A program made the translations under genes and the position numbers. This document shows, piece after piece, positions 1-35,553 of a DNA stretch of 49,152 nucleotides; the stretch's first letter is position 1, and each line of letters starts with the position of its first letter. The notes beneath the pieces were generated by a model, which was given only the letters and a program-made list of their open reading frames with translations, had not been told where the DNA came from and ran no database searches. Source of the stretch: Cyanophora paradoxa CCMP329 (lineage: Eukaryota; Plantae; Glaucophyta); NCBI GenBank assembly GCA_004431415.1, contig QPMI01000229.1:1-49152 (forward strand), in the 5' to 3' direction.

Positions 1-125
1 ACGTCGGGATCCTCAGGCTCAGCCCACAGCATGTTGCGGGATTGCCGAAGCCTTCGGCGCCCTTGTAGGCGCGGGCTTGGACGAGGAACCGTCTGCACCG
101 CCTGGCTGCCAGACGGGGTGGTCCT

Positions 126-549
126 TTAGGGAGACGCGAGCACGCGTCGGGACCCCCGTTCTGCTTGCCAGGGCGGTAGAACGATCTCAAAGTCGTAGGC
201 CTGCAAGAGCAGGGACCAGCGACCGAGGCGGCCCGTCGTCGGGTCCAGCGTCTTCAGCCACTGGAGGGCGTGGTGGTCGGTCCGCACCAGGAACTGGGGG
301 CCGCCCAGCAGATAGTGGCGCCAATACTTAATGGCCCAGACTACTGCGAGGCACTCCAGCTCCGTAGCGGAGTAGTTCATCTCGGCCGGCAGCAGCGTGC
401 GGCTGATGAACGCGAGCGGCCGCTCGACGCCTTTGTCGTCGGCCTGGCTCAGAATTGCGCCGATGCGTAGGTGCTGGCGTCCGTCTGGAGAATGAAGGGC
501 TTCGAGAAGTCCGGGAACCGCAATATAATATCGCGGCCCAGGAGTTCTT
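126..549 (-). CDS. pol: Pol RNase H domain (Ty3/Gypsy type), frameshifted
   Basis: FPDFSKPFILQTDAS...LSQADDKGVERPLAFISRTLLPAEMNYSATELECLAVVWAIKYWRHYLLGGPQFLVRTDHHALQWLKTLDPTTGRLGRWSLLLQAYDFEI, read across frames. Confidence 0.95.
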
Positions 550-1530
550 TCAGCTCTTAAAGGCGCGGTCGGCGGGGCCGTCCTCTGGCCAACTCCAGAC
601 GGCGTCCTTCAATAGAAGGCGCTGCATGGCGTGCACCACTTTGGAGAAGTTCTCGACAAAGCGGCGGTAGTAGCCGGCGAGGCCGAGGAACGAGCGGAGC
701 TCGTCCGCGTTCTTCGGCGTCTGCCAGTCCGTGATCACCTTGGTCTTCGCAGGGTCCTGGCGGATCCCTTCGGCGGAGATGCGGTGGCCGAGAAGGTCGA
801 TTTCAGGCACGCAGAAGCGGCACTTCGACGGCTTCAGGCGCAGGTTCGCCTTAGAGATCGTCTCGAAGAGCGCCTTCAAGTCTAGAAGGTGCTGATCGAT
901 GGACGGTGAGAAGACCGTGATATCGTCGATGTACGCGACGACGCAGGTGGTCAGCAAGGGGCCCAGGATCGCAGTGATCGCGCGGGAGAATGCCGCGGGC
1001 CCGTTCGTGACCCAAACGGCGTAACCTTCCACTGAAAGTGACCCCAGGGGACCACAAATGCAGTGTAGGCTCGGGAGCCGGGGTGCAGAGGCAGCTGCCA
1101 GAAGCCGGCAGTCGCGTCAGCAGTCGAGAAGACCATCGAGCCGCGGAGGCGCTCGAGCTGGTCGTCTATGCGGGTAGGGGAAACACGTCCCGCTCGGTGA
1201 TCTGATTCAGCCTCCGATAGTCGACACAGAAACGCCAAGTGCCGTCCTTTTTGGGGCCAGCACTACCGGCGAGCCATATGCCGCTTGGGAGGGCTCGATC
1301 AGCCCAAGCTCAAGGAGTTTCTGAATTTCCTTGCGGGCGTGTTCCTCGGCGTGCGGGTTCATACGCCGCGGAGGCGTGAACACCGGAAGGCGAGTCGTGA
1401 GTTTGATCACGTGCTCGTAATAGAGCAGGTTGCTGGTGCCCTCTTTGGCCTCGACCTTTGTCTGCGAAGACATCCTTGTAGCGCCGCAGGAGCGCGTGAA
1501 GTTCGGCTTTCTGCGCCGTCGTGATTGACG
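550..1530 (-). CDS. pol: Pol reverse transcriptase domain, split across several frames by indels
   Basis: [12 protein letters not shown]; [17 protein letters not shown]; [22 protein letters not shown]; [17 protein letters not shown]; [26 protein letters not shown]; [18 protein letters not shown]; [12 protein letters not shown]; KPSKCRF; [15 protein letters not shown]. Confidence 0.97.
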
Positions 1531-2109
1531 GGTGAGAGCCGAGCTCAGGAATCTTCTTCAGCAGCTCTTGCCACTTCCTCTGCATTAGGCACCGGCCGCG
1601 GTGCCTCAGCGGCTTCGCGTCGGGTGCTGCAGTCGTAGGGGGTGGGGCATCGGGCCGGGCCGAAAGCGAGGCTGTGACCACACTCTGGGGTGGGGCCTCG
1701 GCGTCGGCGACCGGTGCGGCCTTGCGGACCGTAACGTCGCCGCGCATGGCGCGGACTGCATCGAGCAAGTCGCGCTCCGCTTTTTCGGAGAGACCGGGGA
1801 AGGTCGAGCGCAGGGTGGCGTCTCTGGGGACGGACACTGCCTCGACTGCGGCGACGAACTCGTCGACCGAGGGGCCTGTGATCGGGGCCGGCGTTGGGGA
1901 CGCGCTTCGTGACGACGTGCTCATAGCATCGTCGTCGAGGCTAATGATGCTCATAGCATCAAGGTCCTGCAACGGCCGGTCGGCTGTGTCGAAGGGCAGC
2001 TCGCCAAACGTGACGACTATATCGTCGACGTCGTAGGGCGGTGCGCGGGGTGGGTCGGCGGGCTCAGCAGGCGCTGCGCTAGACAGAGCGCGCTGCTTTT
2101 CCGCCTCAT

Positions 2110-2570
2110 CTACGACAGAACGTAGGTGGAGATTATTTTCTCAACGTCTTTGGCGGGCTCATATGCCGCGCCAAGCATGCGTGCTTTTCTATTAAAGTGG
2201 CGGAGTCCAGTGCGGCGTTTGGCAGGCACGATTCGCAGCCGGCGAATCAAGAGGTCTGTCAATGCACTCGCACTACAAGGCATTTGCTCAGGTTCGTACT
2301 CAAAATCACCAGGCGGTAGGGCGACCGCCGAAGCGACCGCTACTACCGATCCTAGCGGCAGGGTTACCGGCTGCCGGCCAGGATTGCACAACCGCACGTG
2401 AAACATTTTGTCTCCCGGGTGATTATGCAGCTGGTAAGGGCAGAGTACGCCCAAGGCTTGCGGGGACTCCGGCGACGGCTCGACGTAGAGGTGCGGCAAC
2501 TCACGCGTTGCCGGGCCCTGCCCATTGAGCGTGCATGGGACGAGGGCCTCTCCGACGGGGAGCTTTACTG
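2110..2570 (-). CDS. PR-RT spacer with degenerate dUTPase-like beta fold
   Basis: GPVKLPVGEALVPCTL...LYVEP...FHVRLCNPGRQPVTLPLGSVVAVA resembles the spacer pattern seen between PR and RT in many Gypsy elements. No intact dUTPase catalytic motifs were recognised. Confidence 0.55.
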
Positions 2571-3050
2571 GTCCCAGGACTCGGACCAGGATCCCAAGCT
2601 GGTCCGGAGCCGAAAAGGGACGACGACTTCGCGGTGCAGGTGGTCACGGGCCCGGAGGCACCACCCGGACAGCGTCGTGTCGATCTGGCCGTGGACGGCC
2701 TGGATCGCGTCCAGGCCGAGCAGAATGTCCGGCTCAACGCCCATGGCGCCGCGCGGGACGACGAAGACGCGGCGGCAGAAGCGGAGCGAGCCCAGAACGA
2801 AGACTACGTCGGCGCGGCGACAACGAATTTTGTCCCGGTCCATGAAACCGCGGACTATCGTGTGGCCCTCGACGTAATTGACTTCGTCGGGCGGCAGGCG
2901 GTCGAGGACTTCCTGGGGAACTACAGTTCCCTGGGCGCCCGTGTCGACAACAATGCGAGCGGGCCGTTCAGCGCCGGAGCGGCCGTTCGGCAGGCGCATA
3001 GCAATGCTGCCGTGAATGTGCAGTGTCTTTGGCCGGAAGAATTCCAGGGC
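2565..3050 (-). CDS. Retroviral-type aspartic protease
   Basis: RIVVDTGAQGTVV (DTG catalytic motif) and the downstream DILLGLD motif. Confidence 0.93.
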   Translation of the reverse strand, partial: ALEFFRPKTLHIHGSIAMRLPNGRSGAERPARIVVDTGAQGTVVPQEVLDRLPPDEVNYVEGHTIVRGFMDRDKIRCRRADVVFVLGSLRFCRRVFVVPRGAMGVEPDILLGLDAIQAVHGQIDTTLSGWCLRARDHLHREVVVPFRLRTSLGSWSESWDQ

Positions 3051-6000
3051 CCGGTCGCGCGGGAAGCTAGGTCGGGCGCGGCGGACGTGGAATTCTGGTT
3101 CCGGCGGCGCGGTGGACCCGACAGGTCCGTTGCGCTTGCGGTTGGGATGGGGGCCGGGACTGGCGAGCCGCGGCTCGCTCGGCGACTCGGCGCTGCTCTG
3201 CCTGGTCGGCCAACGGCGAGGGCTTGGTCCGCTTGCGCGGGCCCGGGCCGTGGCGGTTGGCGTAGAGCAACTCGTCGCTGGGCGGTCATAGCCGGCGGCG
3301 TTCCCAGCGGCGTCTCCTCTGCCGGGCGGGCACGGCGAGGGACGGGCGGTTTTTGGAGCCCAGGGCGTGGCCCGCGGGCATGAGAGCTTCCTCGTCGGAG
3401 GTCAGGCCCTCGGGGTAATGATCGCGGCGGCCTCGAGCGCGTTCTGCGGGGCGAACGCCGCTGTCGGCGCTGAACCGAGAACCACGCGCGAGTCGGCCGT
3501 GGCGGGGCCTTGTAGCCCGTTTTGCGCATCGAGATGCCGTAGCGGTCCATGATCGCCTGATGCACCGCGCGTAAGCGGGCTCCAGGGTCTTTGGATCGAC
3601 CTGCAGCATTTGCGCGGGGTTCGACAGCCAGTTGAAGACCAGCACGGTCGAGCGCGGCCCGAGCTTTGTGCAGCAGGCGGCGGGCCCAGGCCGGCGCAGG
3701 CTCGCGGCTCTTTGGGGGCCGGGGCGGGCGGCGCGGCTGGCGCCGGCGGCGCGACTGTTTGAGCGGGCGGCTCGTGGACGACCGTCTGGACGCGGCGGAT
3801 CGAGATGTACTTCTCGTCCGCCGGCACCGGCACAGCGGCCCCGGACCGACGCCGGCGTATGCAAGTGGGCGGGAAGGTCACAGGGCGCGCGGGCCTCGTG
3901 CCCGCGGGGTGACGACGCTTCTGCGGCGGTGTATACCGCGAAGAAGGGCTTTGGGTTGGCTTTTGCCGCGGCCTGCATTGCCACGCGAGCCTCGTGCTGG
4001 CGCTCGCGCTCAAGCAAGGCTCGCCAGTCTTTGGTGGCGATCGAGCGTGGCCCGCAGAGCCTCGGAGATCGGCGGGGCCCGTCTGGGAGGAGCGAGATCA
4101 TCATGCCCGTCTCCCCAGCGGAGAGGCTGATCTGCATATCGATGCCGGCCCGGAGGGCGCGGCAGACGTCTTCCGGGCCGCCGAGCGCCTGCTTTGCCTG
4201 GGCGAAGCTTCGTCTGAGACCTTCTGAGCGCCGCCGGGCTTGGCGCGCGTCTCGGCGTGGCTAGCGGCGGTGCGGATCTGGCGCTCGACTGTTTGAAGCC
4301 AAAGCCCCAATTCCGTGACCCTTGGCCCCGGATCTTCACGTCGCGGCAGCTCGAGCACTCGCGCACAAACTGCAGGAGGCCCCCTGCTGGGACGTCAGCC
4401 TGGGGGTTGAAAGTCGTGGCGGCGGAGGCCGCGGCGCGGCCACTGAGGCGCGCGGCTGCTCCGGCGTCGACTGTCTGCGCGCGGCGGCTCGGCCTGGCTC
4501 GCACGCGATGACCGCTCCTGGGCCTGAGAGATGGAGGCGCGACCCTCCGCAGGCTTGGACGGCGCCGCCGACTGCGGACCGGCCTCGCTCTGCCCCTCAG
4601 GCCCCTCTAGAAAGGGCTGCTGGCGCTCGTTGCGTCCGCGCCGTCGGCGGCTGCCCACCCGATGGTGGCGCGGCGGCGCGGGCCGAGGACGACGCGGACT
4701 GAGCGTCCATCTGGTTCTGGAGCTTGATCAGGACCAGCGCGGTGGCCTGCTCAGCTCGCGCGGACGCCGAGAGCGAGTCTGGCATCTCAGCGTACTGCGC
4801 CTTCCAGACCATGTCGAAGAGCTCGCGCAATGTGGGCGGGCAGCCTCGCAGGCGGGCGTCGTTCTCGTGCCGCTTGTACGCAGCGTCTACGGCGCCGCGC
4901 GGCGGGTCCGGCGGGCGGCGAGAGGACTGGCTGCTGCGAGGGCTGCGGCGGTCTCGCGGCGAGGCGCGGTCGCGCGAGCCCTTCTTCGAGCTTTGCGCCG
5001 CTTATCGTCATGGCGGGGGCTCCGGCTCGGGCTCCGATCGCGCGAGCGCGAGCGGGAGCTAGAGCGGGACGGTGTTCGGCTCCGGCGGCGTTCCCGCGAG
5101 CCTCGGCGAGGGCTCCGCCTGTCGCGAGTGTCGCGAGCCGTGGACCGTCGGCTCGGCGGCTGCGGTCGCGGCGCGGCGGCGAGCGATCACGGCGGTCCGG
5201 GGAGCGGCGGCGGGAGGCCTCGCGTCCCGGCGGTCCGGCGAAGGGCGTCGGGAGCCCTCGCGATCGCGGCGTTCCAACGAACGGCGGGACGGCGGCGGCG
5301 CCCGGGATTGCCGGTGGGGCTCCGGGGAGCGCTCGCGGCGCGTGGAGGGGCCCCGCGTCTCGCGCCTGTCTGGGGTGCGAGAGCGGCGACTGGACGGGGC
5401 TCGGCGCGGCTCGGGTGTGCGCGAGCGGCGCTGAGACGAGGCCCGCTCAGGGGTCCGGCGGGCCTGCGACGCGCGACTGGCCGTGTCGTCCCTGCGGCTC
5501 GAGCTTGCCTCGGCCTGGCGGCTCGAGCTGGGCGGCGGCATCAAGGTCCGGGAGGGAGTCTCAGCCGGCGGGGCTTGGTCTGGCGGAGCGCTCTCGGCGA
5601 TCCGCTCGACCTTCACCTTCCCGTCCGAGACGGTTACGCGCATGGTCTTGGGGTCATACCCCTGCTGCCGCGCGAGGAACGCATCCAGCCCGAACGGGTC
5701 GTTCGGGTCGACAGCGGGTTGTGCGGGTTGCGCCTGGCCACCGCCGCGGTCGCCGCCACGGTCACGGTGGCCTCGGCCGTCGCGACCGCGGTGCCGGCCG
5801 CCCCGCTGTGACCCTGCCCGCGGCCGCCTCGGCCAACGGCCTGGCCCGCGTTGCGCCGGGGCCGCGCCTGCTGCGGCGCCGTCGGCGGCGCGGCGGTCTG
5901 CGCAGCGGCCTGCGCCGGCGCGGGCGCCGACGGGGTGGCGGATGGCGCCGCCTCGGCGGGTCGTCCGCGAGCCCGCCGACGATGGTTGAGGGCGGCTGGA

Positions 6001-9000
6001 ACCGCACGCCCGCCCACGTCGCGCGGACCGCTCCTTCGTAGATCGGCTGGTACGGCGTGCGAACCAGAAGGCTTTCGCCTCCTTATCGACAGCCGCCGTC
6101 GCAGTCAGGCTGCGCCGGGCCGAGGCGCGGCGCCCTTGTTCTGGACCGCGTCCCACATCAGCGCCGGGCGCAGAGCCTCAACGTCCCAGTCGGGGAGCAC
6201 GGGTCGTCCGTCTCCCAGTCGATCGGCGCGCGAGGCGGATCGCGACATTCAGATCGGCGTAGAGCGAACGGAGCATCGTCTCGAACTGAGGCCGCAGGGG
6301 TATAGCCTCATCGGTAAAGATGAGCCCCAGCGGGAAGTTCCCGGGACAGTTCTCCAGCTCCTCGGCGGCGCGGGCGGCCTCAAGGTGGCGCTGTATCCCA
6401 CTCTTGCCCCCGGCGCCAAGGTCATCGCCGGCGGGCCACGCGTCCTCGGCGCCGGCCATCGGGGCGAGCCGAGCTCAAGACGCTGGTACCCGAGACCGTG
6501 CGGCATGTTTGTGAGGTACGCGCGGATGCCGTCCGCCAGCGCGCGGGCATCCGAGTCGGCGCACTCATCCCTCGTCATAGTGCGCAAGAGGGCCCTGAAG
6601 ACCTCGGCCACGTTCTGGGGCATGGCGGCGTTCAGGGCGCACAGTTGTCCACCCGCTGCGCGAGCAGCGGGATGCGGGATACTGGAAGCCCTGCAGCATC
6701 GCGAGCAGGATCCGCCCACAGATCGCCGCACGACCCTCGTGGTCCGGCACGACCGCATTGTTCGGGCCAAACTTCCACGCAAGCGTGGGATGACCGTCCG
6801 GGTACGTCGGCCTCGCGTCCGCGTCGAAGACCTTCTTGCCCTGAGGCAAGACGTCGGACCCGCGTCCGGCTTGGCCGTCGGCTTAGTCAGGAAGGCCTCG
6901 TGAATGAACACCATCAGACCGTCCGGCACCACGCAGCGGAACGAGTTCAACACCTTGTTGAAGTCATCCATGTGATCGGCGACCGCCCGAGCGATCTCGG
7001 GACGTAGTCAGCCGGGCGTTCCGACTCGACGTCCATGGCCGCAGCCGACAGAAAGTCATCAGCCCAGTGCTGGCTGCGGAGGTGCTTGCCCGGCGCGTGA
7101 CGCTGGAAGAAGCGCGCGTGCCAGGCCAGCGTAAAACCGATGGCCGTCGCGAGGATTTCCTCTTCCGCCGGGATCGGCGCCCAAGGGCACGTCCCGGAGG
7201 TGAGTTCGGGAAAGGCGGCAGCTCGTAACCGAACGCGGTGACGAGCCGCGGGTTCGCGTGGCTCTTCTTGGCTGGCTCGCAAGCTGGGCGACCGTCACTG
7301 CGAGCCACAGCTTCTTGTTCTCGCGCTGGTGCGGCGCGCCCCTGCGACGTCCTTGTCGCAGGCAGCGTTCGGCGCGGGCGTGGCCGTGCCTGCCACGAGG
7401 CGGGGCGCGTAGATGCGCCGCGTCTGCAGGCGACCCTCAACGTTCTCGACGCGCTTGTCGGCGAGCGGGCGCAGCAGGGCCAGCACGGCGACGTCGCGCG
7501 CGAAGCGGGTCGCGAACGGCGTCCTGGCGTCCTCCTCGTTCGGGTCGGCGATGTTACCGCCCAAGACTGAGGTGTGCAGGGTGGGGCGCTCGGGGTGCGG
7601 CATGTACGGCGGCGGGGCGTTCCGCGCGCCGCCGCCTTCGTGGAAGAAGGCGGTATACAGCACCCGCGAGACCTGGCCCAGGGTCGAACACACGGGTGCG
7701 TGGGCTGTGCCCTCGTGCGTGAGATCCCAGGCGCCCGTGTACGTCGGGACGGCAGACTGTGCGGTACGGGTCCCGACCGCGAGGTACTGCACGATATCCA
7801 AGCTGACGCCGCAGGCGGCGTGCGGGAATGCAAGCCCCTGCAGGTCGAAGAGCTCCGGATCCTCGTCGAACGGCCGCTGAGGCGGGCCTACGAGCGAGAA
7901 CCAGTTCACTATGCCGCGCGCGGCGGGGCCGACGCGCTTGAGCATAGTTGAGCACAGCTCGCCCATGTGCTGGTCCTGCAGCGTGAGCACGTCGACGTTG
8001 TACTCGTCAACGTCGCCGGCGTGCTGCCAGCGCAAGGGGTAGCTGATCGCGGGCAGCGTTGCCCATTCAGTGAACCCTGGCTCATAGCATTCCAGGGGCC
8101 GGAAAAACGCGTGTTTCCGGTCCATGTACTCGCGCAAGAGCTTGTGATCGTTGGCGTACGTCGGGTCCGCCAACGAGAACAGCGGCCGCGGCTGCCAGTC
8201 CTTGTGCGGCTCGAACGGCCTGTGCGCCGCCGCAGGGATGGCAGCCGGCGCCTCTTCCTTCTCGCCCTCTTCCTCTTCGCTCTCGACATGGTCAATGTCG
8301 AGCGGCTCGAGGCGGGGCTCAGGCTCATCGGCGATGTAGGTGCCCACAAGCGCATCGTCGAACGTGAACGACTGCCGTGCAGCGTGACGCTCGAGGGCAT
8401 GCAAGACCTTCTCCTGGAAGGCCGCGCGCTGGGCGGTCAGGGCCAAGCCCCTGTGCGGGTCGCTCTCGGCGGCTTCCTCCTGCGCGCGCGTCCCTAGCTG
8501 CAGGTGGCGGCGCAGCCAGCGAACCCCGTACGGGAACTCCAGGCCGGCGCGTTCCGCGGAGGGAACGGTGGTCCCAACCGCCTCGGCGCGGAACATGGTG
8601 TGAGCACGCAAGAGGTACTGGGCCCACTGCGGCGGGATGACGGCCGCGCTCGGGTTGAAGCGGCCCCCGTGCGTCCACCGCGGCAGGCGCGTGGCAGGGA
8701 TCGTCCAACGCAGAGTCAGGAAGTGCTCCAACTGCTGCTCCGTCCACTCATGCAGGTGGAACGGGAGATCGTGGGAGTGGGGCGTGACGGGGCCACGGAG
8801 CCCCAGCGCGATCATGAAGAGCTCGAACGCGGCCGCGTTGAGCCGCGCGAGGCGAACGGTGCGATCGGCTCTGAGCGCGACGCGGCCCTCCGGCGGCTCC
8901 TCGTGCGGCACGGGCGGCCCATCCAGGCGGTTCTGGATTGGCGTGCTCCTCTCGCTGGCGAGAAACGCCTTGAGGTGCGGGACCCGCAGGTCCTCGAACG

Positions 9001-12000
9001 TGCCCTTCAGTGCGTCGAAGGGGATGCTCCAGCGGTGGGCGAGATCAGACCGGGCCGTCATGGGCCACTCGGTGATCTGTTTCCCCTCACAGAGCCGAGG
9101 CGGGCACCCCGGCACTGCGAGGACGCCGCTCATCACGCCCATAGCCTCGTACAGGGCCCGCTGGCTCAGGTTCTCATCGATAGCCGACGGCGGCGGCGGC
9201 GGCGGCGCTTCTCGGGCGCCTCATCGCCGTCGCCCCGCTCGCCCATCTCGGCGTCTTCCCCCTCAGCCTGCCCACGGCGGGCGCTGCGGGTTCGTGGCCC
9301 CTGCGAGCCGCGCCCACGGGTGCTGACGCGCACGACCCCGTCCCCGCGGCCACGCTCGCCGCGACGGGCGGCCTGCGGGGAGCCGGCGCGGTCGCGCGCG
9401 CGACGTCGAGTAGCGGCTCGCTCAGGCGAGGCTCGACAGGCGCGGGCTCAGTGGCGGGCGGCGTCGGAGCGGCGGTGGGCCGCGGCGCCATCGGGCTCGC
9501 AAGCGGCGGCCATGTTGCCGCGGCGTGCAAGGTCACGAGCTTCGCCGTCGGTGCAGGCGGCGGGACAGGAACGGGCGCCGGCCGCGCCGGCGCTGGCGGG
9601 TCCCTCGGCGAGAGCGCCTTCACAGGCGGGCGCGGCGGCAGGCAGGCCTTAGCCTCCTTGATCGTCGCGCTGACGGCCTTCGCCGTGTAGGCGCCCGTCG
9701 TGTCCGACGCCGGCTTCGGCGTGGTGGGCAGGTCGTGGAGAGGAGTGGGGGTGCGGCTGCCCGCATCCGTGCGCCACTTCTCCACGAGCGCGATCATGTC
9801 CTTGACAGCCTCGTCATTGAAACCGGCCCGCTTCTTCAGCAGCCTACGGAATAGAATGACGAGGTGGGCCCGGTCGCCCGCCTTGGCCCCTCGATGTACC
9901 GGAGCAGCTCCGCGGCCCCGGCGGATCCGGGAACCGTGCGGGCCCAGGCTGCATCGCACAGGGCGGTGAGCGGCGGCGCGGGCCGAGCTGGCTCAGCACG
10001 TAGAGCTCCTCAGGCACGATCGTGGGCAGCTGCCCGCCTCGCGTCGTGCCGTGCAGGGCAACTGCGTGGTGCGCGTGATCGGGCGCACGCGGCCGACCCT
10101 CCACGTGCCAGGCTCTGCCCGTGCAGGCGCGGCCAGTGCAGCCAGGTGTCGCACAAGTGCAGGTCCCGGAGGTGCAGAACGCGGGCGGCGGCGACGCGGG
10201 GCTCCACCGGAACGCGTTCAACCGTGCGGGACTCGCCCTCGCTCACGACCGGGAAGGCGGGGGCACGGCCGTCGCGGTACGCAGTCAGACGCTCCGCGAG
10301 CGCTGCCCGCAGCCATCCTCGGCGTCCCGATCCGAGCGGAGACGTGCCCGCCCCGGGATCGGAACCTCAACGGAGGCAGCCAGGACGGCAAGCGAGTGAA
10401 CGGCTTCCGTGAACTCCGAGTCCGAGGGACAAGAGGGTTCCCGTCGGCCAGGGCAACGGCGCTCTTGTGGGCGTCGTGGGGACCGGCGCGGCCGCCGATG
10501 CAAGCCACGGTCTTCCACTGGATCGCGTGCTCGAGGGCCAGCAGGGCGAAGCCATAGGCGTCGACCCGCGCGTCCACCATGAGCGGCTCGGCGAACTTAA
10601 AGAAGCGGCCGAGGATCTTCTCGACGGCGCCGGCGGTGCCCGGGCACCGTAGTCGACGCGGTGCAGGAAATAGCCCGCAACAGTCGAGGCGCACGCAAGG
10701 CGGAGGCGGTCCTGTGCCGGCAACAGCTCGCTCAGCTCGATTAGCTGGCGGCGGCCCGACACTGTCATCTCGTGCGGCTCGAGAGAGGCCGCCACGGGCG
10801 AGTGCTGGCCAATGCTCCAGTGGCGGCGGTATGGCTCCAGCCAGCCGGCGGTAGCGACGCACTCGTCCCCAAGCTTCGTAAGCTTGTGGGCGTCGGGCTC
10901 GACTGCGGGGCGACCCTCGGGCGTGAGGCCCTCGGCGTGCGGCCACGCGTGGCCCCCGGCCCACTTCGCGGCGACGCGAGAGGCCTGGTGCGTGAGGCTC
11001 ATGATTTCATAATAGTGCGTCGGCCAGGCGTGAGCCAGCGTGTCCTGGGACAGCGGGTCATGCCCCAGCATCTGCAGGAACGCAGTGGGGAGGGTCCGCG
11101 AGCCGAGGTACGTGCTCTCGGTGGCGAGCGGCTGAGAGAACGCCGCAAGCAAGAAGGAGAGCGTCTGGCGGGTGCGGGCCGGGCAGCGGAACGCAGTGGC
11201 ATACCACTGCTCGTCCCGGACCTCGATCAGCCCCTCGCTCACAGTGCAGCCGCAGTGAGTCTCGCACGGCGCTGGGTACAGGAACGCCGCGCGGTCGAGC
11301 GGGACCGACGCGGCGCCCTTCAGCTTGTGCGCGTCCACGTTCCAGAGAGGAACGGGCCCCAGCTCGTGCTCGCGGCCCTTCACCGGCTCTAACTCAACGG
11401 CTCCGAAGTGAGTGAGGTCTAGGCCGGGGCTAGCGCTGAGGAGGCGAGCGCGGTTGAGGCGCAGGGTCTCCTTAGACGCTACGGTCGCGTCCTCGTCGGC
11501 GAGGGAGGCGCCGTCGTCGGTCACCTCGAGGCTCGCTACCGTCTCGGCCCCCGAGGAGTACCCCAGGCAGCAGCCCACGCCGGCGGCGGGTCCGCCGGAG
11601 CCTCGGCGGCGGCGGTCTCGGGGACCGACTTGGTGGGAGCGAGCTCCGTCGCGGGCTCGGGACCCTTCGCTTCTGCGTCAGCGCCCTCGACCTCCGTTGG
11701 GTCCGGGGCGGCCGCCAAGAGGAGTGCGACCTCCTCAAGGGCGGCGTCCACGATGCCGGCGGCGAGCTCGGCGGGGAAAGAAGTCGGCACGGGCGTCGGC
11801 GCGGGACCCTTCGCTGCTGCGTCAGCGCCCTCGACCTCCGTTGGGTCCGGGGCGGCCGCCAAGAGGAGTGCGATTTCCTCGAGGGCGGCGTCCACTGCGT
11901 CGAACGCGACCTTCTTCTCCCCTCGTCCAGGCCCGACTCCGGCGGGTCGGCAACAGGTCCTGCGCCTCGCAGGGGGCCGGCCTCTCGGCTCCCGTGGGGC

Positions 12001-12460
12001 ACAGGTCTGGGCGGCTTTCCCCGGACAGCTGCACTACTGCGATCGCGAAAGCGGTGGCGGCTGCGGCGACCGCGTTGAGAGCGGGGCCGTCCCGGGGGTC
12101 CTGCAGCGCGGCGGCGTGCGCCGCGGCCGCTGCGGTGAAGGCTCGGAAGGTATCGTCGACCAACGCCTCGTCGCTGCGCACGATGCGCACACGGTACACG
12201 TGCTTTTCCTTGCCAAGCTCGGCGGGCGCCGGGGCCGCCGTGGGCCCCGACCCGTGGCCGCCGGTCGGCGCGGGAAGCAGTGCAGTCGCGGACGGGCCGG
12301 CGGCGCCGCTTCGGGCAGCCTGCTCGAGCATGGCGCGCGCGATCGTGAAGGCGTTGGGGTCAGCCCAGGGCGCCGGCGTCGCGGGCGGCACGGGCGGGGC
12401 TGCAGCGGCGGCGGCGTGTTCTGCAAGCGCGCGGCGGACCGCGGCCTCGAGCGTCTGCGC
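3051..12460 (-). CDS. Unrecognised ~3,100-codon coding region between Gag and protease (frameshifted pieces)
   Basis: Chain of abutting or overlapping minus-strand ORF pieces with protein-like composition (11822-12391, 11536-11895, 10367-11578, 9174-9959, 7295-9142, 6947-7282, 6249-6971, 6178-6459, 5059-6156, 4597-4830, 3286-4137). No introns are visible. Confidence 0.65.
11659..11895. repeat. Internal direct repeat: two ~93-bp copies with a 144-bp period
   Basis: 11659-11751 versus 11803-11895; each encodes VDAALEE(I/V)ALLLAAAPDPTEVEGADA(A/E)AKGP on the minus strand. Confidence 0.95.
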
Positions 12461-14045
12461 CTGGGCCGGGCAGGACGCGGCCAGGTGGCCGGTTTTGCCG
12501 CAGTTGTAGCACGCCCGGGGCCCTGCAGCTTGCTGGGGCGGGGGCTCGAGCGGCCGTTCCCACCCTGCGGCGCGGGGTAGAACCGGCGCTTCGGGTCACC
12601 GGTGCCTGCGCCCGTTGGCCCGCGGCGCTTGGCCGGGTTGATTGCCGACCACTCGGGCAGAGGCCGCGGGTTGGTCCGGCACTCAAACGAGTAGTGCGAC
12701 TCGCCGCAGTGGCACGGCCGCCGGGGCTTCTCGGGAGACCCCGGGCCTTCAGGAAGTCTTTGATCTTCTGCTGATAGACCGGGTCGTCAAGGCGGGGCGG
12801 CGGTGCGGACGCCGACGGGTAGAGCGCGCGGACTACGACGAGGGGCTCGTCCCGAGCAATGAGCTGCAGGAACGAGATGACCTCGGCGTTCTGATCCTCG
12901 GCGTCGTCCGCGTCCCACCCGTACGCGTTTGCCTCAAGCTCTGCGATCTCGGCTTCCGACACCGTCGTCGCGAGCATGATGCGCGTGCCCGCGCCGGCGC
13001 CCGCGTTCGAGCGCGAGGGGACGACGGGGACAGCTGGCGTGTGCGTGATCGGCGGCGCGCTCTGCGGCGTGCGCGAGGCAGCCGTGGGCGCCTGCAGCGG
13101 CGTCCCGCGCGAGCCCAGCACTAGGGCCGAGCCGGGGACTTTGGAGATATCGACGTCCCAGGCGCCCAGTTCATTGGTGCGCTTGGTTACCAGGTCGATG
13201 ACCGCAGAGGGTCCCGTGATCTCGCGGTCCGCGATCTTCTGCGACAGCTCGTCATAGATCTTCCGAGCCGTGGAGAAGTTCGTCATCATGTGCCGGCGAT
13301 CGGTGTCCGAAATCTCGGAGTCTTCGAAGTCGCGGCACTGATTGCGAGTGCGGCGCTTGAGCATCTGGCCCGCGTGGCGCATGAGTGCCATAAGCGGTGT
13401 CTCGTGCGCCTCGCGGCACTCCGGGATGATGCTCAAGTCGAGGACGCGGCGATAGAACGCCTCCGGCGCCTCGCCCACGTGCGGCAGGTCGAGGAGCGCC
13501 TTGTACCGGTCAGGGTTCCGCATCTCGGCGTCATCTTCGAGACGGCGCCTGATCGCGGTGTACGTGACCGTGAGGGCGGTCCGCTGCAAGCCCTCCTCGG
13601 CTTGCGCGATCTTCTCGTCGAGCGTCTCGAGGATCGCGACGTCTCGCGGGTCCGCCGTGCTCGTGCGCGCACGCTCGGCCCGGTACGCCTTCAGCTTCTC
13701 GAGCTCGCGAGTGTCGATCTGCTCGGCGCTCTGGAACAGCGAGATGTTCTGGCGCACGGGGTGCCCGTGATCTAGCGTGCCGAGAAGAGCCCACCCAGTT
13801 CGCTTCTGCACTTCAATGTGTGCAGTCGGCGAGACACTGAGCAAGTCCTTGCTCATGCTCGCGCAGCTCTCGAACTGGCGGAGGTGGTCCTGAACCGTGC
13901 GCTGATCGCTGCCCGGCGGCAGCTTCGGCAGGCTCTGGATCCATTGCAAAACATTTGATCCGCTCATAGAGTCCATGTCGGCGGCGCCACGCGCGTGCGC
14001 GGCCCGGACGACGAACTCCGCGGAGGCTCCGGTCCCCGAGGACAT
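12461..14045 (-). CDS. gag: Gag (capsid-like region plus nucleocapsid zinc knuckles)
   Basis: ATG at 14045; N-terminal LPKLPPGSDQRTVQDHLRQFE is capsid-like; canonical knuckle CYNCGKTGHLAASC at 12470-12511; variant knuckle CHCGESHYSFEC at 12679-12714. The knuckles are reached via frameshifts. Confidence 0.85.
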
Positions 14046-14408
14046 TCTCAGGTCAAGCGGCGACGTAATGCCACGCTTTTCCGTGAGAGAATGTGCCTCG
14101 CTCGAGATCCGAGGCCGTCGTGGTCCACAGCAGCGGCGAGCAAGCTCACTAGCTCGGCTGCGGCGATTCCGGAGACAGCTCGGGCGCGCACGCCTCAGCC
14201 GTCGATCCGATCGCTCTTCGTCTTGTCCAGCACGATCGCAACAGCCGGAGAAGGCTGGCGTCGCGGCGAGTGACTAGCGACCGATCAGGAATGATCCCAC
14301 GGGCTCGCACGCAGCTCGCTCAGGAAACGGCGACGATCCGATCGGGACGGGGATCCCTCGGTATTCGCGCGCGTTCCTGGATCCGCAGGACTAAGTTCTG
14401 GTTCTTTC

Positions 14409-14426
14409 CAGAATGTTCGGTCGCCA
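14409..14426 (-). promoter_or_regulatory. Candidate primer-binding site (TGGCGACC..., tRNA-Arg-like)
   Basis: The minus strand reads ...CCGCA-gt-TGGCGACCGAACATTCTG, i.e. CA, a 2-nt spacer, then TGG. A full tRNA match was not verifiable. Confidence 0.45.
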
Positions 14427-14428
14427 AC

Positions 14429-14846
14429 TGCGGATCAGCCCGGAGCGGCGCAGGCGGGGCGCGAGAAGCGACCCACGACCTCTGCTGAGGTCTACCTGCG
14501 CGCCGGCTGAGCCGCGGTCGCCGAGCTGGGTCGGTTGCTGATGACGGGTCGCTGATGATCGGGGTTCTGGCTCCGTGAGCAGATGGCGCCTGTCGGATGA
14601 GAGGATTCCCACCCGGTGCAGCGTCCGTGCGGTCACGCACGGGCTGGGGCTGTAGCTGGGAGCACAAGTGGTCTATTCACAAGTGTACCCGTCCAGGGAT
14701 CGCGTACCCCCAAACGGAGTCGCGCCCGGCGCTAAGTCAGAATACAGAGAGTGCTAGAGCTAGCTGCTCGATAGCACTAGACTAGGGCTAGCGGCTACGC
14801 ATAGACTGCCGGCTAGCCTAATCCGAGGGAATCGCGGCACGCGACA
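14429..14846 (-). repeat. Candidate 5' LTR
   Basis: Begins TG (14846) and ends CA (14429) on the minus strand, next to the PBS candidate. An alternative inner end at 14591 gives a perfect TGTCG...CGACA terminal repeat. The second LTR is not in the window. Confidence 0.5.
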
Positions 14847-14907
14847 CATATGCATGTAATCAGCAACAGGCATTCATCGTCATTACATTCGCACGCGTTG
14901 TGCAAAC

Positions 14908-17900
14908 CCTTTGTGGTCAGAAGGGTCTCCTCGCTCTTGTTTGATGCGCCTGCGGCAAGCACGCACAGTTATCACGTTTGAACACGTTTGCTATGCGTAT
15001 GGGCGTATGGGCGCAGGACTGAAAACCGATCGCGATCACGAACCATACTTATTATGGCACTGCAGGAGAAATGGGTACGTCGTCGATGGGTCCAGTCCAC
15101 GCGCCCTCAGGCGAAGTGGGGTCTGGCTGGATCCGGACGGGACGATAGCTAACGTGTCCGCAACTTCTTCTCCGCTAATGATCGATCTGATGACGAGCAG
15201 GTCGCACTGCATCGCGAGCGCGCACCGCGAACGATTAAATTCGGCGAGATATTCATGATTACTCAGTGACTAGCTTCGCTGATCATGAGGTTCGCACGCT
15301 TGTAATGGGAGCGACAGGGCTGCCTGGCAGCGTGAAAGTGACGGAAACCGAGCGAGGAGAGGCCTTGATGAGGACTGGCGCCGCAGGTGTGGCGATGCCT
15401 GTCGCTCCGCGATCACTTGCAAGTAGAGTCATAATAATGCAAGTTCATATAGAAACTTGTAACTTAGAAGTTGCAATGGGTGGACTCATGATCAATTGCA
15501 ACGCTCACCGGGGTCGATAAGAGGGAAGATCATGGCGTTCTTGATCAACAGAGTGTCTTTCGTTGCAGGGTCAGTCAGTCCGAGCGCTGAAAATCGATTC
15601 ATGATCAGATTCGAATCACGGAAATGCGCGGATGCGGGGACTTGATTAAGACTGGGACTAGTACTGTCGAACCATGGTCGGGGTTCTGCGCCGAAAACAC
15701 GCGCGCGCTGGTCACTCGACCGCAATCGATTATCATTTGCGCATTCTGAATGCACCGAGAAGACGTTCAGCGCGGCCTGACGCAAAGCGCGCGAGTGGAG
15801 CCGAGCGGCTGTTGATGCAGGTCGCAGGTGCTCGGGCAGATGCGGCATCGAATCGACCCGATTGAACCAGCATTTTCCATTCTCATCCTGCGCATGCGCG
15901 AATGCTTTTGATTACAGTCGAGAAAATTTGAAAGAGATCTCGTGCGCACACAGCCTTCCTGCGTTCTGTTTGCAGACTCATTAATTAATATTATCGGCGA
16001 GAGGAACGAATGAGTGGGGCGCGCACGGCCTCTGGTAGTATGTCGTCGCGACCTGGCCGGTCTGCAGCAGCTGCCGCCGGCCAGTGCCAGTCGTCGCTAC
16101 GACGGGGCAGATCTCGACGAAGTTGCCCTCGGCTCCCTGACGCGTGTCGGAGTATTGCTGCGTTACATTCAAAAATCAGTATGCAGTACTTGTAGAATAA
16201 GGTGCGCAATATTCCGGGATCCTTCTAGAGAGCCCGCCATAGATCCAATATTCAGGCCCGGCCCGCATGCGCACCGGGCATCCGGCCGTAGCGATGTCCT
16301 GAAGTGCGCTACGGGAGAGATTGCCGATAGCGCTGCCGCGGCTCGAAGATGAAGTGACACCGTGGCTGAGGCGATCGGCAAGCAGCCGCCGCCGCGGGGG
16401 AGACCCGAACGGTAGGAGCTCCGGCCCGTTCAGAACGAACTCGGTGCCAGCCGGGGCCAGCTCGACGTCGCTAAGCAGCGCGCGGCCAGCCGGCGCCGCG
16501 CGCTCGCGATCGTACGCGTGTACGATCCGGATCGGGGTTCCGTCGATCTCGTACTCCACGTCAACATCCACCATCGGCGCGCCCCGCTCAGAAAGTTTCC
16601 GACGGCGGGCAGCAGATATAACAGCGACGTCTGCAATTGCGCGTGTCAGATCGGTTGCACGCTCTCGAATCTAAGAATAACTGCCCAAGCAGCTGAAAGC
16701 GATTGCAGTCGTGAAGATGGCTAGTGTATATGTGTAATATCTAAATGCGCACGATTGCTCGAAGAGACAGTCGTGGATGTGGAAGTAGCTCCCGCCACAG
16801 GGGGCGCGGGCGGCGGATAGATGGGCGCCACTGCTTGTATTCCGCCGTCTGGTGCCACGGTGTAGTCGGCAAGTCATTAGCGACCGAAGTAAAGAAAAGC
16901 CGACTCGAACTCAGGCGAACCCCGACTGGATTGGAATTTCGAAATATCGGCGGATGAGATTTGAACAGCTGATTATATGTATCATATGCATGCGCGATCG
17001 CATCAAACGAGTCGGTGGAGAACCAAGAGGGGAGCAGAGCGGCGGGCTGACCCTTGTTTGCGGTCTTTACTGTGATCGGAGCGGATTTCAAGCTTTCGCC
17101 GTCGGCCGTTGAGCAGGATGCAATAACGCCTGCGCACACTTCGTTACCATATGCATTCCTAAGTTAATTATATATACAATATTATGAATACTAAGGGCAC
17201 GCTCATATGCATGATCACGATCCGTTACAGGGGACATGTACAGCGCACTGTAATCAGTGTTCTTCATGAGTTCGACAGTCTTGAGAGAGGTTGAGACCTT
17301 GATTGTCGGGAGTTCCCCAAAGCGTAGGGTAAAGTAGATCTTGGGATCCACCAATGTTTGACCGGCGATCAAGTTCGTGACGGAGCCGCCTGCGACATAC
17401 CCTGCAGGTTTCGAGAACGCTGACACGGCTGCGCGCACGCGGAGGCCCGGGTGTGGTCAACGCTTGCGCAGGCGGGCTGCGGCGCGCGCAGGCGGCCGCA
17501 CTGGCGGGCTTCCCGCTGATGTAGAGCGTGCAGAACTTGACTGCGATCGTTCAAATTCCCAGTCAGCGAGTCGATCGAGAAGGCAGAGGCCGGGCGAACT
17601 TCGGACATCATCAATGGATCCAGACATCTAGCTATAGATCTAAAGCTAGCCATAGCTCGAGCGGCCGTGGACCAAGGCCTAGGGCCACAGTAGAGGGCGC
17701 ACATACACTGGTGACGAGGTTATTTTGAACACTCGAGGGCATTGAGCCCACGTCAGAACGTCCGAGCTTCATTGAGACTGCGATGACCTGTAGACAGCAA
17801 CGAATTAAATTGAGCTACAATTTCCGCGAGGATATTGAAGCGCTAACGCTTGCCTGGTTTTCTTGATCTGCCGCGGCGGCTGCCAGTTCGCTCGGCGCCT

Positions 17901-30072: not shown

Positions 30073-30877
30073 GAACGGCCCTACCCCTCCCTATTCCCCC
30101 CCTCTGAGCCCCTCCTCCGCTACCCTACCCCCCACATCCCGTAACCCTGTCCTGCCCCCCCCCCTCTCCCCGGATACCGCGTCCCGCGTCTCGTATCCCC
30201 CCCCCCCCCCCCCCCTTTGCGGCAACCTCCCCCCCCCCCCCCCCCCCACACACACCTCCGGCGCTGCCCCCGGGCCCAAGCCTCTCCCCCCCTTCCACCC
30301 TCCTCCCCCCCCCCCCCTCTTCTCCTCCCCTTCCCCTGAAGCTTAAGTGTCGGGCCCGGGCGCAGATCAACGCGAACGATCGCGAGAGCCTCGAGGTCTC
30401 CCGTGGCCGCCAGAAGGCGGCCGCCCCCCTCCTCCCTCTCCTCCCCCTGCCTAAGGCCTTGAAAAGCATTTTGTGGTCCCCCACCAATGCCGCACTGCCT
30501 CGCTGCGCGAAAGTTGGCCGCGAAGGTCGCTGCGCCCGGCCTCCTATCCATGGCCAGCCCCCGACAGCTCGAGGCATTCCATATCCCGCCCAGGCCCCTC
30601 CGTACCACCAACTGCCCTTCCCGAGACTCGAACGCTGGAGCAATAAGACGCCGGCCGGGTGCACTGCTAGCTCGGCACACTCTTATTCCCGCATCCGCGA
30701 GAGAAGTGAGCATGTTGAACGCTTGGTCCGCCGCCGAACAGCCACCCTTCAAACGGGGGGGACGAGGGGACAGCTAACCAAAGTCGGCGTGCTCCTCGCC
30801 TAATTCTCCAGGCCCACTTCAGACGCTAGCGCGTAAAACCACGCCCAGCTTAGAGCCTAGTCAGAGATATCGGTAAT

Positions 30878-31160: not shown

Positions 31161-32583
31161 CTAGGAGAAAGTCTTTTTCTTGGGCTTTTGCGCCCCGAGG
31201 AGCGGTCCGGATGCGGTGGGGACCGCCAGAGTGGCCATGGCGGGGCGGACGCCGGCGGCCATGGAGAGTCCTGCGGCGGCTCGCGCCGAGCTTGCGCTCG
31301 TGCTCGCGAGGACCGCGGCAGAGGCCGCCGGGCGCATCCCAAAGTTCACGCGCTGCGCAGGGCGCCGCGGCGTGAGCTAACGCTCGACTCCAGCAAAGAG
31401 CGGCTCAGTATTAAGAACAAGCGAGGAGCTGCGGAGCGCACGTTGTAGAGGGCCTGGAGGGCCTTGTAGAGGTGGTACGTGTGCGCGCAGGTCAGCTCCT
31501 TGTGCACGCATGCCTGCCGCCGCGCCAGCCTTGTCAGAGATAGAAAGCATAATTATAATTAGAGTCCCGCCGGCTCGCTAATAAAAAGCATTAGAGTCCC
31601 GCCGCCGATTAGAGTTTAAGCAGATTCCCGCCGGCTCGCTCGCCTCGATGGCGTCGTCGGGCGGGGCGGAGGCGCCGGCGCGGCGCCAGAGGTCCTCCCG
31701 CTTGAGGTGCTCCGCCAGCGGCTGCCGCGCCGCCGCCGCGTCCGCGCCCGTCCCCGCAAGGTACCTAAAGACGGCCAGGGTCAGTCGGCCGATCCCGAAG
31801 CCGCCGTCGATCCCGACGCCGGCGGGTCATGATCATCGTTTCCGATCGGTAGTATTTAGCGGAATACTCTGCGCACCTGAAGATGAAGCGTCGCAGGGCG
31901 ACGCGCAGGTCCTCCAGGCGCAGCCGAGGCGGCCCCGTCGCCGTCGTCGATTCCGACGCCGCCGCCGATCCCGACGTCGATGCCGGCGGAGCGCTCCCCG
32001 CGCGGGCCTCGCGCTCGGGCGCCAGGTCGAGGCCGGCGGCGAGGGCCGCCTCGGCCCCCTCGGGCAGCGCCCGCTTGAACTGCTCCGCCACGCACTCCAC
32101 CACCACCTGCGCGGGACAGATTCAGAGTCGGTGCGACGGAAATCAAGCGTGCGGTAGAATCTCAAGCCAAACGCAGCCAGAGTCGGTGCGAAGGCGACAT
32201 TTTAAGCTGCAGATCTAGATAGCTGCAGATGTGAGCTGAGCGCAGGAAATTCATGTTTCTAACTTCACAGGATTTCGCGCGCTGAGTTCTGCATTCTGAG
32301 CAGAGCGGCGGCGGGCGGGCGCGCGCCTCGCAGCAAATGCCCTCGAGCTCCTCGTAGACGGCGCAGACGTGCTTGAGGGCGAGGCCGCGGAGCACGGGCA
32401 GCGAGAGGAGCCAGGCTTCAAGCGAGCCGGCCTCGAACTGCCGCGCGAAGTCGCCCAGCGGCTGCTCCTCCGGCCACCGCCCCGAGGCCCGGTTCAGCTG
32501 CGCGCGTGCAGAATCAGCTAGAGCGCGCCCGCAGAATCAGCTGGTAGCTAGTTAGGTGGGTAATAGATAATTAGGAAGCGTTG

Positions 32584-32625
<42 letters not shown>

Positions 32626-35522: not shown

Positions 35523-35553
<31 letters not shown>

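What the first reader, a model, noticed from the sequence alone, without database searches (positions are those of the whole stretch)
3051..12460. Giant Gypsy element with ~3,100 codons of unknown cargo between Gag and protease
Seen: the CCHC knuckle (12470-12511) and the protease (~2950) are ~9.4 kb apart. The interval is filled by same-strand, intronless, protein-like ORF pieces that hand over by frameshift, whereas the neighbouring host genes are intron-rich. I saw no internal LTR, poly(A) tail or second Gag. Established: in typical Ty3/Gypsy elements NC and PR are adjacent, and giant lineages (plant Ogre, planarian Burro) are rare. Inference: a single Gag-X-Pol polyprotein of over 4,600 aa before integrase, with alternating globular blocks and Pro/Ala or Arg/Ser linkers that the protease could release as accessory proteins. 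This may be an undescribed lineage of cargo-carrying giant retrotransposons.
Basis: partly seen in the sequence, partly recalled or inferred. Interest (0 to 1): 0.9.

Follow-up and report, generated by a model that had tools for sequence, protein, structure and literature searches.

The report
Giant-Gag algal retrotransposon with unknown cargo
A multi-copy jumping gene, most likely from a freshwater alga, carries about 3,150 codons of conserved but unrecognised protein between its capsid and protease genes, likely made as one giant protein that the protease would cut into accessory proteins predicted to handle the element's own RNA.

Summary
Real, and mostly as seen. The minus strand holds the 5' part of a Ty3/Gypsy LTR retrotransposon. 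The roughly 51 frame breaks between Gag and protease are errors of this copy's sequence: short-read contigs show indels with almost no substitutions, and gene models of other copies bridge them. ORF1 is very likely one frame of about 3,840 codons: Gag, two knuckles, about 3,150 codons of cargo, protease, then a real stop. So it is not one Gag-X-Pol ORF. Pol lies in the -1 frame, behind the only in-frame slippery heptamer found in 3,508 codons and a hairpin (frameshift inferred). Near-identical models lie on 16 other contigs labelled Cyanophora paradoxa. A sister family keeps Gag and cargo blocks A and B collinear, and the blocks are as conserved (53%, 48%) as Gag (42%). It is not a nested insertion or a misassembly. 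No cargo homologue outside this host was found, and folding failed, so cargo function is inferred only from RG- and RS-rich tracts. Planarian Burro is the architectural precedent; cargo and host are new. Cargo-less derivatives are not excluded.

The parts
14429..14846 (-). 5' LTR, about 418 bp, TG...CA (ends inferred)
   Evidence: The single-copy flank contig begins at 14818 and overlaps the repeat by up to 30 nt, so the junction is near 14847; depth about doubles in bin 14176-14742. The 3' end is inferred from CA just before the PBS-like motif; no second LTR in the window to confirm it.
14847..14851 (-). Candidate target-site duplication, one side only
   Evidence: Flank next to the junction; cannot be checked because the 3' end of the element is outside the window.
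14418..14426 (-). Candidate primer-binding site TGGCGACCG, 2 nt after the LTR end
   Evidence: Sequence. Likeness to a tRNA-Arg 3' end is recalled, not tested; no tRNA gene in the window.
2565..14045 (-). ORF1, Gag-cargo-protease, about 3,841 codons, read here with X at about 51 sequence-error breaks
   Evidence: Every segment is stop-free in the implied frame; other-copy model P0007 runs collinearly from the ATG to 4114; P0021 runs from the cargo tail into PR; length.
13140..14045 (-). Gag capsid-like region
   Evidence: No Pfam hit. Assigned by position before the knuckles and an MHR-like stretch (recalled motif); 42% identical to the sister family.
12679..12714 (-). Variant zinc knuckle C-x-C-x3-H-x4-C
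   Evidence: Motif scan; conserved in P0011/P0013.
12470..12511 (-). Canonical CCHC knuckle (NC)
   Evidence: PF00098 E 6.8e-7.
11643..11912 (-). 126-nt tandem duplication (86%) in an Ala/Pro/acidic linker
   Evidence: family D10; the motif occurs once in the sister family.
9740..11563 (-). Cargo block A, about 610 aa, globular-like composition, no known family
   Evidence: 53% identical over 602 aligned residues to P0013; no Pfam, PHROG or NCBIfam hit and no PDB hit of note.
9187..9740 (-). Pro/Ala then RG-rich linker
   Evidence: Composition table; 38% identity and an RG-rich stretch in the sister family.
6000..9184 (-). Cargo block B, about 1,050 aa, globular-like composition, no known family
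   Evidence: 48% identical over 747 residues to P0013 up to 6866, where that model ends; phmmer of its first 615 aa over 1.84 billion representatives gave 6 hits, all models of the same host.
4900..5970 (-). RG-rich and long Arg/Ser (RS-like) low-complexity tract
   Evidence: Up to 40% Arg and 14 RS/SR dipeptides per 100 aa; 7 RG in 5971-5673; same frame in P0007.
3110..4900 (-). Cargo tail: short helical-looking blocks between Pro/Ala linkers; holds the two least certain breaks (near 4383 and within 4010-4140)
   Evidence: P0021 reads the same frames from about 3730 to 3330. No sister-family sequence was available.
2709..2966 (-). Aspartic protease at the C-terminal end of ORF1
   Evidence: PF13650 E 3.4e-5, PF13975 E 2.8e-4.
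2613..2619 (-). Slippery heptamer C CCU UUU (predicted -1 frameshift site)
   Evidence: The only in-frame X XXY YYZ among 3,508 codons scanned, inside the 25-codon overlap with the -1 frame.
2578..2611 (-). Predicted stimulatory hairpin; its 8-bp core starts 6 nt after the heptamer
   Evidence: -17.9 kcal/mol, z -2.0, 6 of 200 shuffles as good in a 39-nt fold; the two longer folds (81 and 94 nt) are not unusual, z -0.48 and -0.18.
2565..2567 (-). Real stop codon ending ORF1
   Evidence: Contig pieces 2474/2477-2627 have 0 gaps and 0 substitutions in 4 of 4 runs.
1..2613 (-). ORF2 (pol), -1 frame: about 450-aa spacer region, RT (about 1250-560), RNase H (about 550-180); linker and integrase lie beyond the window
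   Evidence: Pfam RVT_1 and RT_RNaseH; other-copy models P0021 and P0022 add integrase; best PDB match Ty3-G Gag-Pol, E 3.9e-76.

Best explanation
This is a multi-copy Ty3/Gypsy LTR retrotransposon whose first reading frame very likely encodes one giant Gag-cargo-protease protein of about 3,840 residues, which the protease would cut into capsid, nucleocapsid and accessory proteins predicted to bind and handle the element's own RNA, while reverse transcriptase and integrase are likely made by a -1 ribosomal frameshift just before the stop. Shown: domain order, many near-identical copies, breaks being sequence errors, a real stop after PR, pol in the -1 frame, and a cargo kept collinear and under protein-level constraint in two families about 50% apart. 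Inferred: continuity across two unplaced breaks, the frameshift, proteolytic release, and present activity. Most speculative: cargo function. Because cargo and PR sit in the Gag frame they would be made one-to-one with capsid, which fits structural or RNP roles better than catalysis. RG clusters after blocks A and B and the RS tract point to RNA binding, condensate or particle-assembly scaffolding, or export of the unspliced 18-kb RNA (about 40% for this role; counter-defence about 25%; Env-like under 10%).
For: Domain order PR-RT-RH-IN and Ty3-G as best match. Depth over the cargo is about 10x, 17x and 15x the single-copy flank in X1, X2, X16, with one unbranched 6,157-nt contig over 3980-10108 carrying 0 substitutions and 34 gaps (depth is only a rough guide to copy number). 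Models 95-100% identical where aligned lie on 16 other contigs (P0016 left out as possibly this locus). 10 of 10 hits of a Gag-only query and 15 of 15 knuckle-bearing models carry block A. Implied breaks match contig gap counts in 16 of 16 pieces, 13 of them largely independent. Sister-family identity: Gag 42%, block A 53%, block B 48%, linker 38%. Minor variants in the cargo: 8 of 13 synonymous against 25% expected, P 0.006; RT/RH 10 of 11 (drawn from the 40 of 254 rows shown; one further cargo site, 3926, dropped as an error of the window). Real stop. One slippery heptamer in 3,508 codons, falling in a 25-codon overlap, about 0.7% by position. Hairpin. The 151-nt contig over the frameshift site has about 20-27% more depth than the PR contig in X2, X9 and X16 while variant contigs branch off beside it, which suggests that a diverged subfamily shares it unchanged (suggestive only).
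Against: Cargo depth is only 0.57, 0.82 and 0.70 of Gag depth in X1, X2, X16. GC bias or subfamilies that share Gag words can explain this, but so can cargo-less derivatives. The Gag search covered only proteins of 766-2185 aa, so a plain Gag-PR of about 700 aa could not appear, and it missed the sister family. Only 15 of 48 joints were shown. Two breaks are not placed exactly; a stop would intervene if one fell in 4396-4403 or the other in 4104-4113, and P0007 does end at the stop near 4103. Three breaks in 10118-10427 rest on other copies' proteins only. The hairpin is unremarkable in longer folds. All five PR-RT gene models join PR to RT by a predicted intron, although at different places. 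No fold or family was obtained for the cargo, so its role rests on composition alone. No sister-family sequence covers the last 1,400 cargo residues or the frameshift site.
Confidence: 0.72

Rival explanations
1. Same giant Gag-cargo-PR frame, but pol is reached by splicing out the stretch between PR and RT, as in plant Ogre, not by frameshifting.
For: [quoted passage not shown] 5 of 5 PR-RT gene models put an intron here.
Against: The predicted introns use different ends in different copies, as do the many other predicted introns that skip sequence errors. The -1 frame stays open from the overlap into the spacer. The unique heptamer and hairpin lie exactly in the overlap.
Confidence: 0.1
2. 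The cargo is mainly a counter-defence or host-manipulation set (suppressing silencing or restriction), as suggested for Burro's apoptosis and ubiquitin domains, rather than an RNP scaffold.
For: Blocks A and B are more conserved than capsid, as enzymes or host-binding domains would be. Precedents: Burro and an orchid Gypsy m6A demethylase (PMC9289625, abstract and introduction).
Against: No enzyme or host-domain similarity in any library tried. One-to-one synthesis with capsid is wasteful for an enzyme (inference).
Confidence: 0.25
3. The cargo is an in-frame envelope or cell-exit module, making this an infectious retrovirus-like agent of an alga, as proposed for Burro.
For: Burro has Env homology in frame between Gag and PR. 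One hydrophobic helix near 12082 is conserved in both families (KD19 1.89 and 1.88).
Against: No strong transmembrane segment, 3 N-glycosylation sequons and 41 Cys in 3,640 residues read; no match to fusion proteins in Pfam or PDB; no relatives in two scans of viral contigs.
Confidence: 0.07
4. The insert is a nested element, captured host gene cluster or misassembly sitting in an ordinary Gypsy element.
For: Cargo depth is below Gag and pol depth.
Against: In-frame continuity, no termini seen, one unbranched contig over 6 kb, collinear models on 16 other contigs, and the same cargo behind a Gag only 42% identical.
Confidence: 0.03
5. ORF1 is really two long ORFs, split by a true stop near 4100 or 4397, with the tail and PR expressed by another recoding step.
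For: P0007 ends at the stop near 4103; two breaks are unplaced.
Against: Net frame counts join Gag to PR in frame. The depth dip puts both surplus bases in 4036-4092, so the window's reading at about 4113 is not a surplus base. Only 8-10-nt windows would give a stop.
Confidence: 0.07

Closest known systems
Burro / GYPSM1 giant Gypsy-like elements of planarians (PMC6431247, passages of section 7)
   Same: N-terminal Gag with CCHC knuckles followed by thousands of in-frame residues (ORF1 of 4,873-5,140 aa) and extra domains between Gag and PR.
   Different: Burro cargo has recognisable domains (AIR1, Smc, MATH, BIR, ankyrin, BCL2, Env), a 25-kb internal region and thousands of copies in an animal. 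Here no cargo domain is recognised, no Env signs were found, the element is about 18 kb (estimated) in some tens of copies in an alga, and ORF1 ends right after PR. Relationship by RT phylogeny was not tested.
Plant Ogre/Tat elements (PMC6317226, passages; PMC6431247)
   Same: Large Ty3/Gypsy elements with GAG-PROT in one ORF and RT-RH-INT in a second; extra coding capacity of unknown function.
   Different: Ogre's extra ORFs are separate from the polyprotein, its size comes largely from long LTRs, and PR-RT is bridged by an intron. Here the LTR is about 0.4 kb, the cargo is inside ORF1, and the two ORFs overlap with a -1 signal. No aRH or chromodomain hit in P0021/P0022.
Alpharetrovirus (ASLV)-type Gag-PR with a -1 frameshift into pol (recalled, no call)
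   Same: Protease at the end of the Gag frame, one-to-one with capsid; RT and IN by -1 frameshift.
   Different: Here Pol is Ty3-like, there is no env, and 3,150 residues separate NC from PR.
Cer1 CERV protein of C. elegans (PMC10309623, abstract only)
   Same: An LTR retrotransposon accessory protein needed for export of unspliced genomic RNA: a functional model for an RS/RG-rich cargo.
   Different: CERV comes from a spliced mRNA; no sequence comparison with this cargo was made.

Membership tests
Ty3/Gypsy (Metaviridae) LTR retrotransposon | Order PR-RT-RH-IN | tested here: met
   PR, RT, RH in the window; IN after RH in other copies P0021 and P0022.
Ty3/Gypsy (Metaviridae) LTR retrotransposon | RT/RH most like Ty3-type enzymes | tested here: met
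   Best of 20 PDB matches is Ty3-G, E 3.9e-76; next other family E 1.8e-38. No tree was built.
Ty3/Gypsy (Metaviridae) LTR retrotransposon | Two LTRs, PBS, PPT and TSD | tested here: inconclusive
   One LTR by depth and junction, and a PBS-like motif; the 3' end is outside the window and no genome is held.
Ty3/Gypsy (Metaviridae) LTR retrotransposon | Gag with capsid and CCHC nucleocapsid | tested here: inconclusive
   Knuckle met; the capsid region has no Pfam or PDB hit and was not folded.
Burro-like giant elements | Multi-thousand-residue ORF1 with cargo after the Gag knuckles | tested here: met
   About 3,841 codons.
Burro-like giant elements | BIR, ankyrin, MATH, BCL2, AIR1, Smc and Env-like cargo | tested here: not met
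   No such hit in Pfam, NCBIfam, PHROG or PDB sequence searches; HHpred-level sensitivity was not available.
Burro-like giant elements | RT clade shared with Burro | not testable with these tools
   No Burro sequence could be fetched.
Ogre/Tat | GAG-PROT ORF separate from RT-RH-INT | tested here: met
   Real stop after PR.
Ogre/Tat | Intron between PR and RT; aRH domain; separate extra ORFs; multi-kb LTRs | tested here: not met
   Overlapping open -1 frame; no second RNase H family in P0021; cargo in frame; LTR about 0.4 kb (inferred). Splicing itself could not be tested on RNA.
Chromovirus | Chromodomain after integrase | tested here: not met
   No chromodomain hit in P0021 or P0022 at E 0.1; both are error-prone gene models.
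-1 programmed ribosomal frameshift | In-frame X XXY YYZ heptamer in the ORF overlap, short spacer, downstream structure | tested here: met
   Heptamer 2619-2613, 6-nt spacer to the core stem, hairpin z -2.0 in the short fold only.
-1 programmed ribosomal frameshift | Measured frameshifting | not testable with these tools
   Needs a reporter assay or ribosome profiling.
dUTPase-like domain between PR and RT (rotifer, fungal and Burro elements) | Similarity to dUTPase | tested here: inconclusive
   2643-2113 resembles such domains by eye (recalled), but has no Pfam, PHROG, NCBIfam or PDB hit.

The most novel reading that the evidence does not exclude
An old glaucophyte lineage of LTR retrotransposons has independently evolved a 400-kDa Gag-cargo-protease precursor. 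It makes two large protein domains of folds or families not yet known, plus an RS/RG RNA-binding tract, one-to-one with capsid, and these perform a new function in the retroelement cycle: a particle shell or assembly compartment, RNA export, counter-defence, or cell-to-cell spread in an alga. It would be the second known case of a giant in-frame Gag cargo after planarian Burro and the first in Archaeplastida, in near-identical, probably still mobile copies in a culturable host.
Probability: 0.5. Interest if true: 0.85.

Novelty: new variant of a known kind. Interest (0 to 1): 0.72.

Why it matters
Stable gain of large protein domains inside the Gag polyprotein is rare among LTR retrotransposons. 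Here about 1,650 residues of globular-like cargo without detected homologues are conserved as strongly as capsid across two families, so they do something the element needs. The copies are near-identical and the likely host can be cultured, so particles, processing, frameshifting and structures can be tested directly. The finding also shows that at least 20 'multi-intron host genes' of this species in public protein sets are fragments of these retrotransposon families broken up by long-read errors.

Tried and rejected
No whole genome is held, so no BLASTN of copies, 3' LTR, PPT or TSD. AlphaFold2 failed on block B as a single sequence (pLDDT 35.2) and with a 6-row alignment of only 2-3 distinct sequences (pLDDT 27.9); no fold search was run on these models. 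ESM Atlas: no usable hit for block B; block A did not complete. Pfam, PHROG, NCBIfam and PDB gave nothing for the cargo; weak hits (SctB2 E 0.02, zf_VAL1_N E 0.017-0.042, eIF4A and CTLA-4 E over 1.7) were rejected as chance. Related-locus scans found nothing: viral contigs with block A and with P0013; metagenomes with block B and with RT (one RT pattern came from a wrong-frame stretch). These scans need near-exact peptides and are weak evidence. No RNA holder was listed and the one RNA-guess run laid, X21, gave only short low-complexity matches; this says nothing on expression. No joint linking Gag to PR was among the 15 of 48 joints shown, and none at all in 2440-4140. The 75-86% identities of P0003-P0005 first looked like diverged families but come from predicted introns over errors. 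Biological frameshifts inside the cargo were rejected. The Burro primary paper is not held. Complex prediction was not used: no binding claim is made. No RT tree was built for lack of named reference sequences.
Full report
Observation. The minus strand of window 1-14846 holds the 5' part of an LTR retrotransposon. Pfam finds a CCHC knuckle at 12511-12470, an aspartic protease at about 2966-2709, RT at about 1250-560 and RNase H at about 550-180; none of the pieces tested between knuckle and protease has a significant hit (31 pieces). A codon model trained on three clear frames traces a coding path through most of the interval, with frame changes that nearly all look like one missing base and that also occur inside RT and RNase H. 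The repeat scan shows no internal LTR-like repeat among the 20 of 50 direct-repeat families printed, only a 126-nt duplication.

The frame breaks are sequence errors. 20 of 24 listed runs, all 'organism A', hold 83-84% of the words of 2900-12800. Their contigs differ from the window by indels and almost no substitutions; for example one 6,157-nt contig covers 3980-10108 with 34 gap letters and 0 other letters. Protein searches returned gene models of other copies, all labelled Cyanophora paradoxa by their source. P0007 (3,082 aa) follows the window from the Gag ATG at 14045 to 4114 and crosses most breaks without loss of residues. I compared the breaks implied by these proteins with contig lengths and gap counts: 16 of 16 pieces agree. 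Three pieces near PR are circular, three carry a contig-derived term for 3980-4140, and 10108-10456 is covered by proteins only. Read with X at each break, every segment from the ATG to PR is free of stops. ORF1 is about 3,841 codons with about 51 breaks. Two breaks are not placed exactly, and each has an 8-10-nt window where a stop would intervene.

ORF1 ends after protease. Contigs over 2474-2789 show no gap and no substitution in the main pieces of all four runs, so the stop at 2567-2565 is real and pol lies in the -1 frame, overlapping by 25 codons. The only in-frame X XXY YYZ heptamer in 3,508 ORF1 codons scanned (4641-4037 left out) is C CCU UUU at 2619-2613, inside that overlap. A hairpin follows, with its core stem 6 nt downstream (-17.9 kcal/mol, 6 of 200 shuffles as good); two longer folds are not unusual. 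A -1 frameshift is therefore the best reading, but it is inferred. The rival is Ogre-type splicing (PMC6317226, passages): all five PR-RT models have an intron here, but with differing ends. Another copy, P0021, joins the cargo tail, PR, RT, RH, a linker of about 500 aa and integrase; its best solved match is Ty3-G Gag-Pol. The whole element would be about 18 kb (estimate).

The cargo belongs to the element and is under selection. Depth over the cargo is about 10-17 times that of the flank. Models near-identical to the window lie on 16 other contigs; P0016 follows the window with no single-base joint and was left out as possibly this locus. A subfamily about 90% identical is seen on 4 contigs (P0014, P0017, P0022, P0027) and a sister family about 50% identical on 2 (P0011, P0013). 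In the sister family Gag, both knuckles, block A and block B are collinear, with identities of 42% (capsid region), 53% (A), 38% (linker) and 48% (B). All 15 knuckle-bearing models of the 27 proteins held run on into block A, but 8 were found through cargo queries and the Gag query saw only proteins of 766-2185 aa. Minor variants listed in the cargo are 8 of 13 synonymous (expected 25%, P 0.006), from the 40 of 254 rows shown. Against full coupling: cargo depth is 0.57-0.82 of Gag depth, which may reflect GC bias (68-78% against 66%), shared subfamily words, or cargo-less derivatives.

What the cargo is. Anatomy from composition: Ala/Pro/acidic linker; block A (about 610 aa); Pro/Ala and RG linker; block B (about 1,050 aa); RG cluster and an RS tract with up to 40% Arg; a tail of short blocks; PR. 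There is no strong transmembrane segment (maximum KD19 1.89, an Ala-rich helix conserved in both families) and only 3 N-glycosylation sequons, so an Env role is unlikely. phmmer of 615 aa of block B over 1.84 billion representatives gave 6 hits, all from this host. Block A had no such exhaustive search. Pfam, PHROG, NCBIfam, PDB, viral and metagenome scans gave nothing, and both folds failed. My committed reading is that PR cuts the precursor into CA, NC and accessory proteins made one-to-one with capsid, and that these most likely bind and organise the element's long unspliced RNA (assembly scaffold or export; compare CERV, PMC10309623, abstract only). Counter-defence is the main rival. These functional steps are inference only.

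Comparison and novelty. Burro elements have Gag, knuckles and many extra domains in a 4,873-5,140-aa ORF1, with Env homology before PR (PMC6431247, passages), so the kind is known. Plant extra ORFs are separate from the polyprotein, and GAG-PROT / RT-RH-INT splits are known. This element shares no recognised cargo with either. I found no description of it in print. Searches: Cyanophora paradoxa + retrotransposon + Gypsy, 4 papers; glaucophyte + LTR retrotransposon + Ty3, 1 paper; Cyanophora + assembly + LTR + repeat, 21 papers with 15 listed; for giant elements and recoding; all seen as listings only except the papers named here. The species' genome paper (PMC6704402, passages) gives LTRs as 1.77% of the genome and describes no element in the passages seen; its supplements and Repbase were not seen and may hold an entry. 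PMC5009743, PMC5408684 (passages) and PMC9289625 (abstract and introduction) gave background only. The ASLV comparison, the MHR-like motif, the tRNA-Arg PBS and the dUTPase-like look are recalled, from no call.

Verdict. A real, multi-copy giant Gypsy lineage with a Gag-cargo-PR precursor and a predicted -1 frameshift into pol: a new variant of a known kind, interest 0.72. Confidence is high in the architecture, moderate in the frameshift and low in the cargo's function.

Noticed in passing
window 32900-48200, minus strand: Multi-exon host gene like RNF213 (mysterin): AAA region matches RNF213 structures at E 7e-37, with an RZ finger (PF20173, E 6e-11) and an N-terminal CBM20 (PF00686). An RNF213-type immune E3 ligase in this host may be of interest.
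   Followed up: partly
window 27900-30100, plus strand: Intron-rich dynamin-family GTPase gene (PF00350, E 8.6e-5) with poly-C-rich introns.
   Followed up: partly
P0026 and P0001 (neighbouring models on one contig): The knuckle region of P0026 is of the 90% subfamily type while its end and P0001 are of the window's type, which suggests a recombinant copy between subfamilies.
   Followed up: no
P0021 aa 885-1380, P0022 aa 420-915 (beyond the window's left end): A second long Pro/Ala/acidic insertion of about 500 aa lies between RNase H and integrase, and about 450 aa lie between PR and RT, so Pol is also expanded.
   Followed up: no
window 2477-2627: The contig over the frameshift site is deeper than the PR contig while variant contigs branch off next to it: possibly a cis-element kept unchanged between subfamilies.
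   Followed up: partly
window 16179-16670 and 17818-18468, minus strand: Two open frames with protein-like composition and no Pfam hit in the single-copy flank.
   Followed up: no
window 35414-35836: Gly/Asp/Asn-coding 9-12-nt repeat array inside the RNF213-like gene; (TTAG)n tract at 32572-32639.
   Followed up: no
public protein models P0001-P0027: These predicted multi-exon 'genes' are pieces of these retrotransposon families; their introns mostly skip long-read errors.
   Followed up: yes
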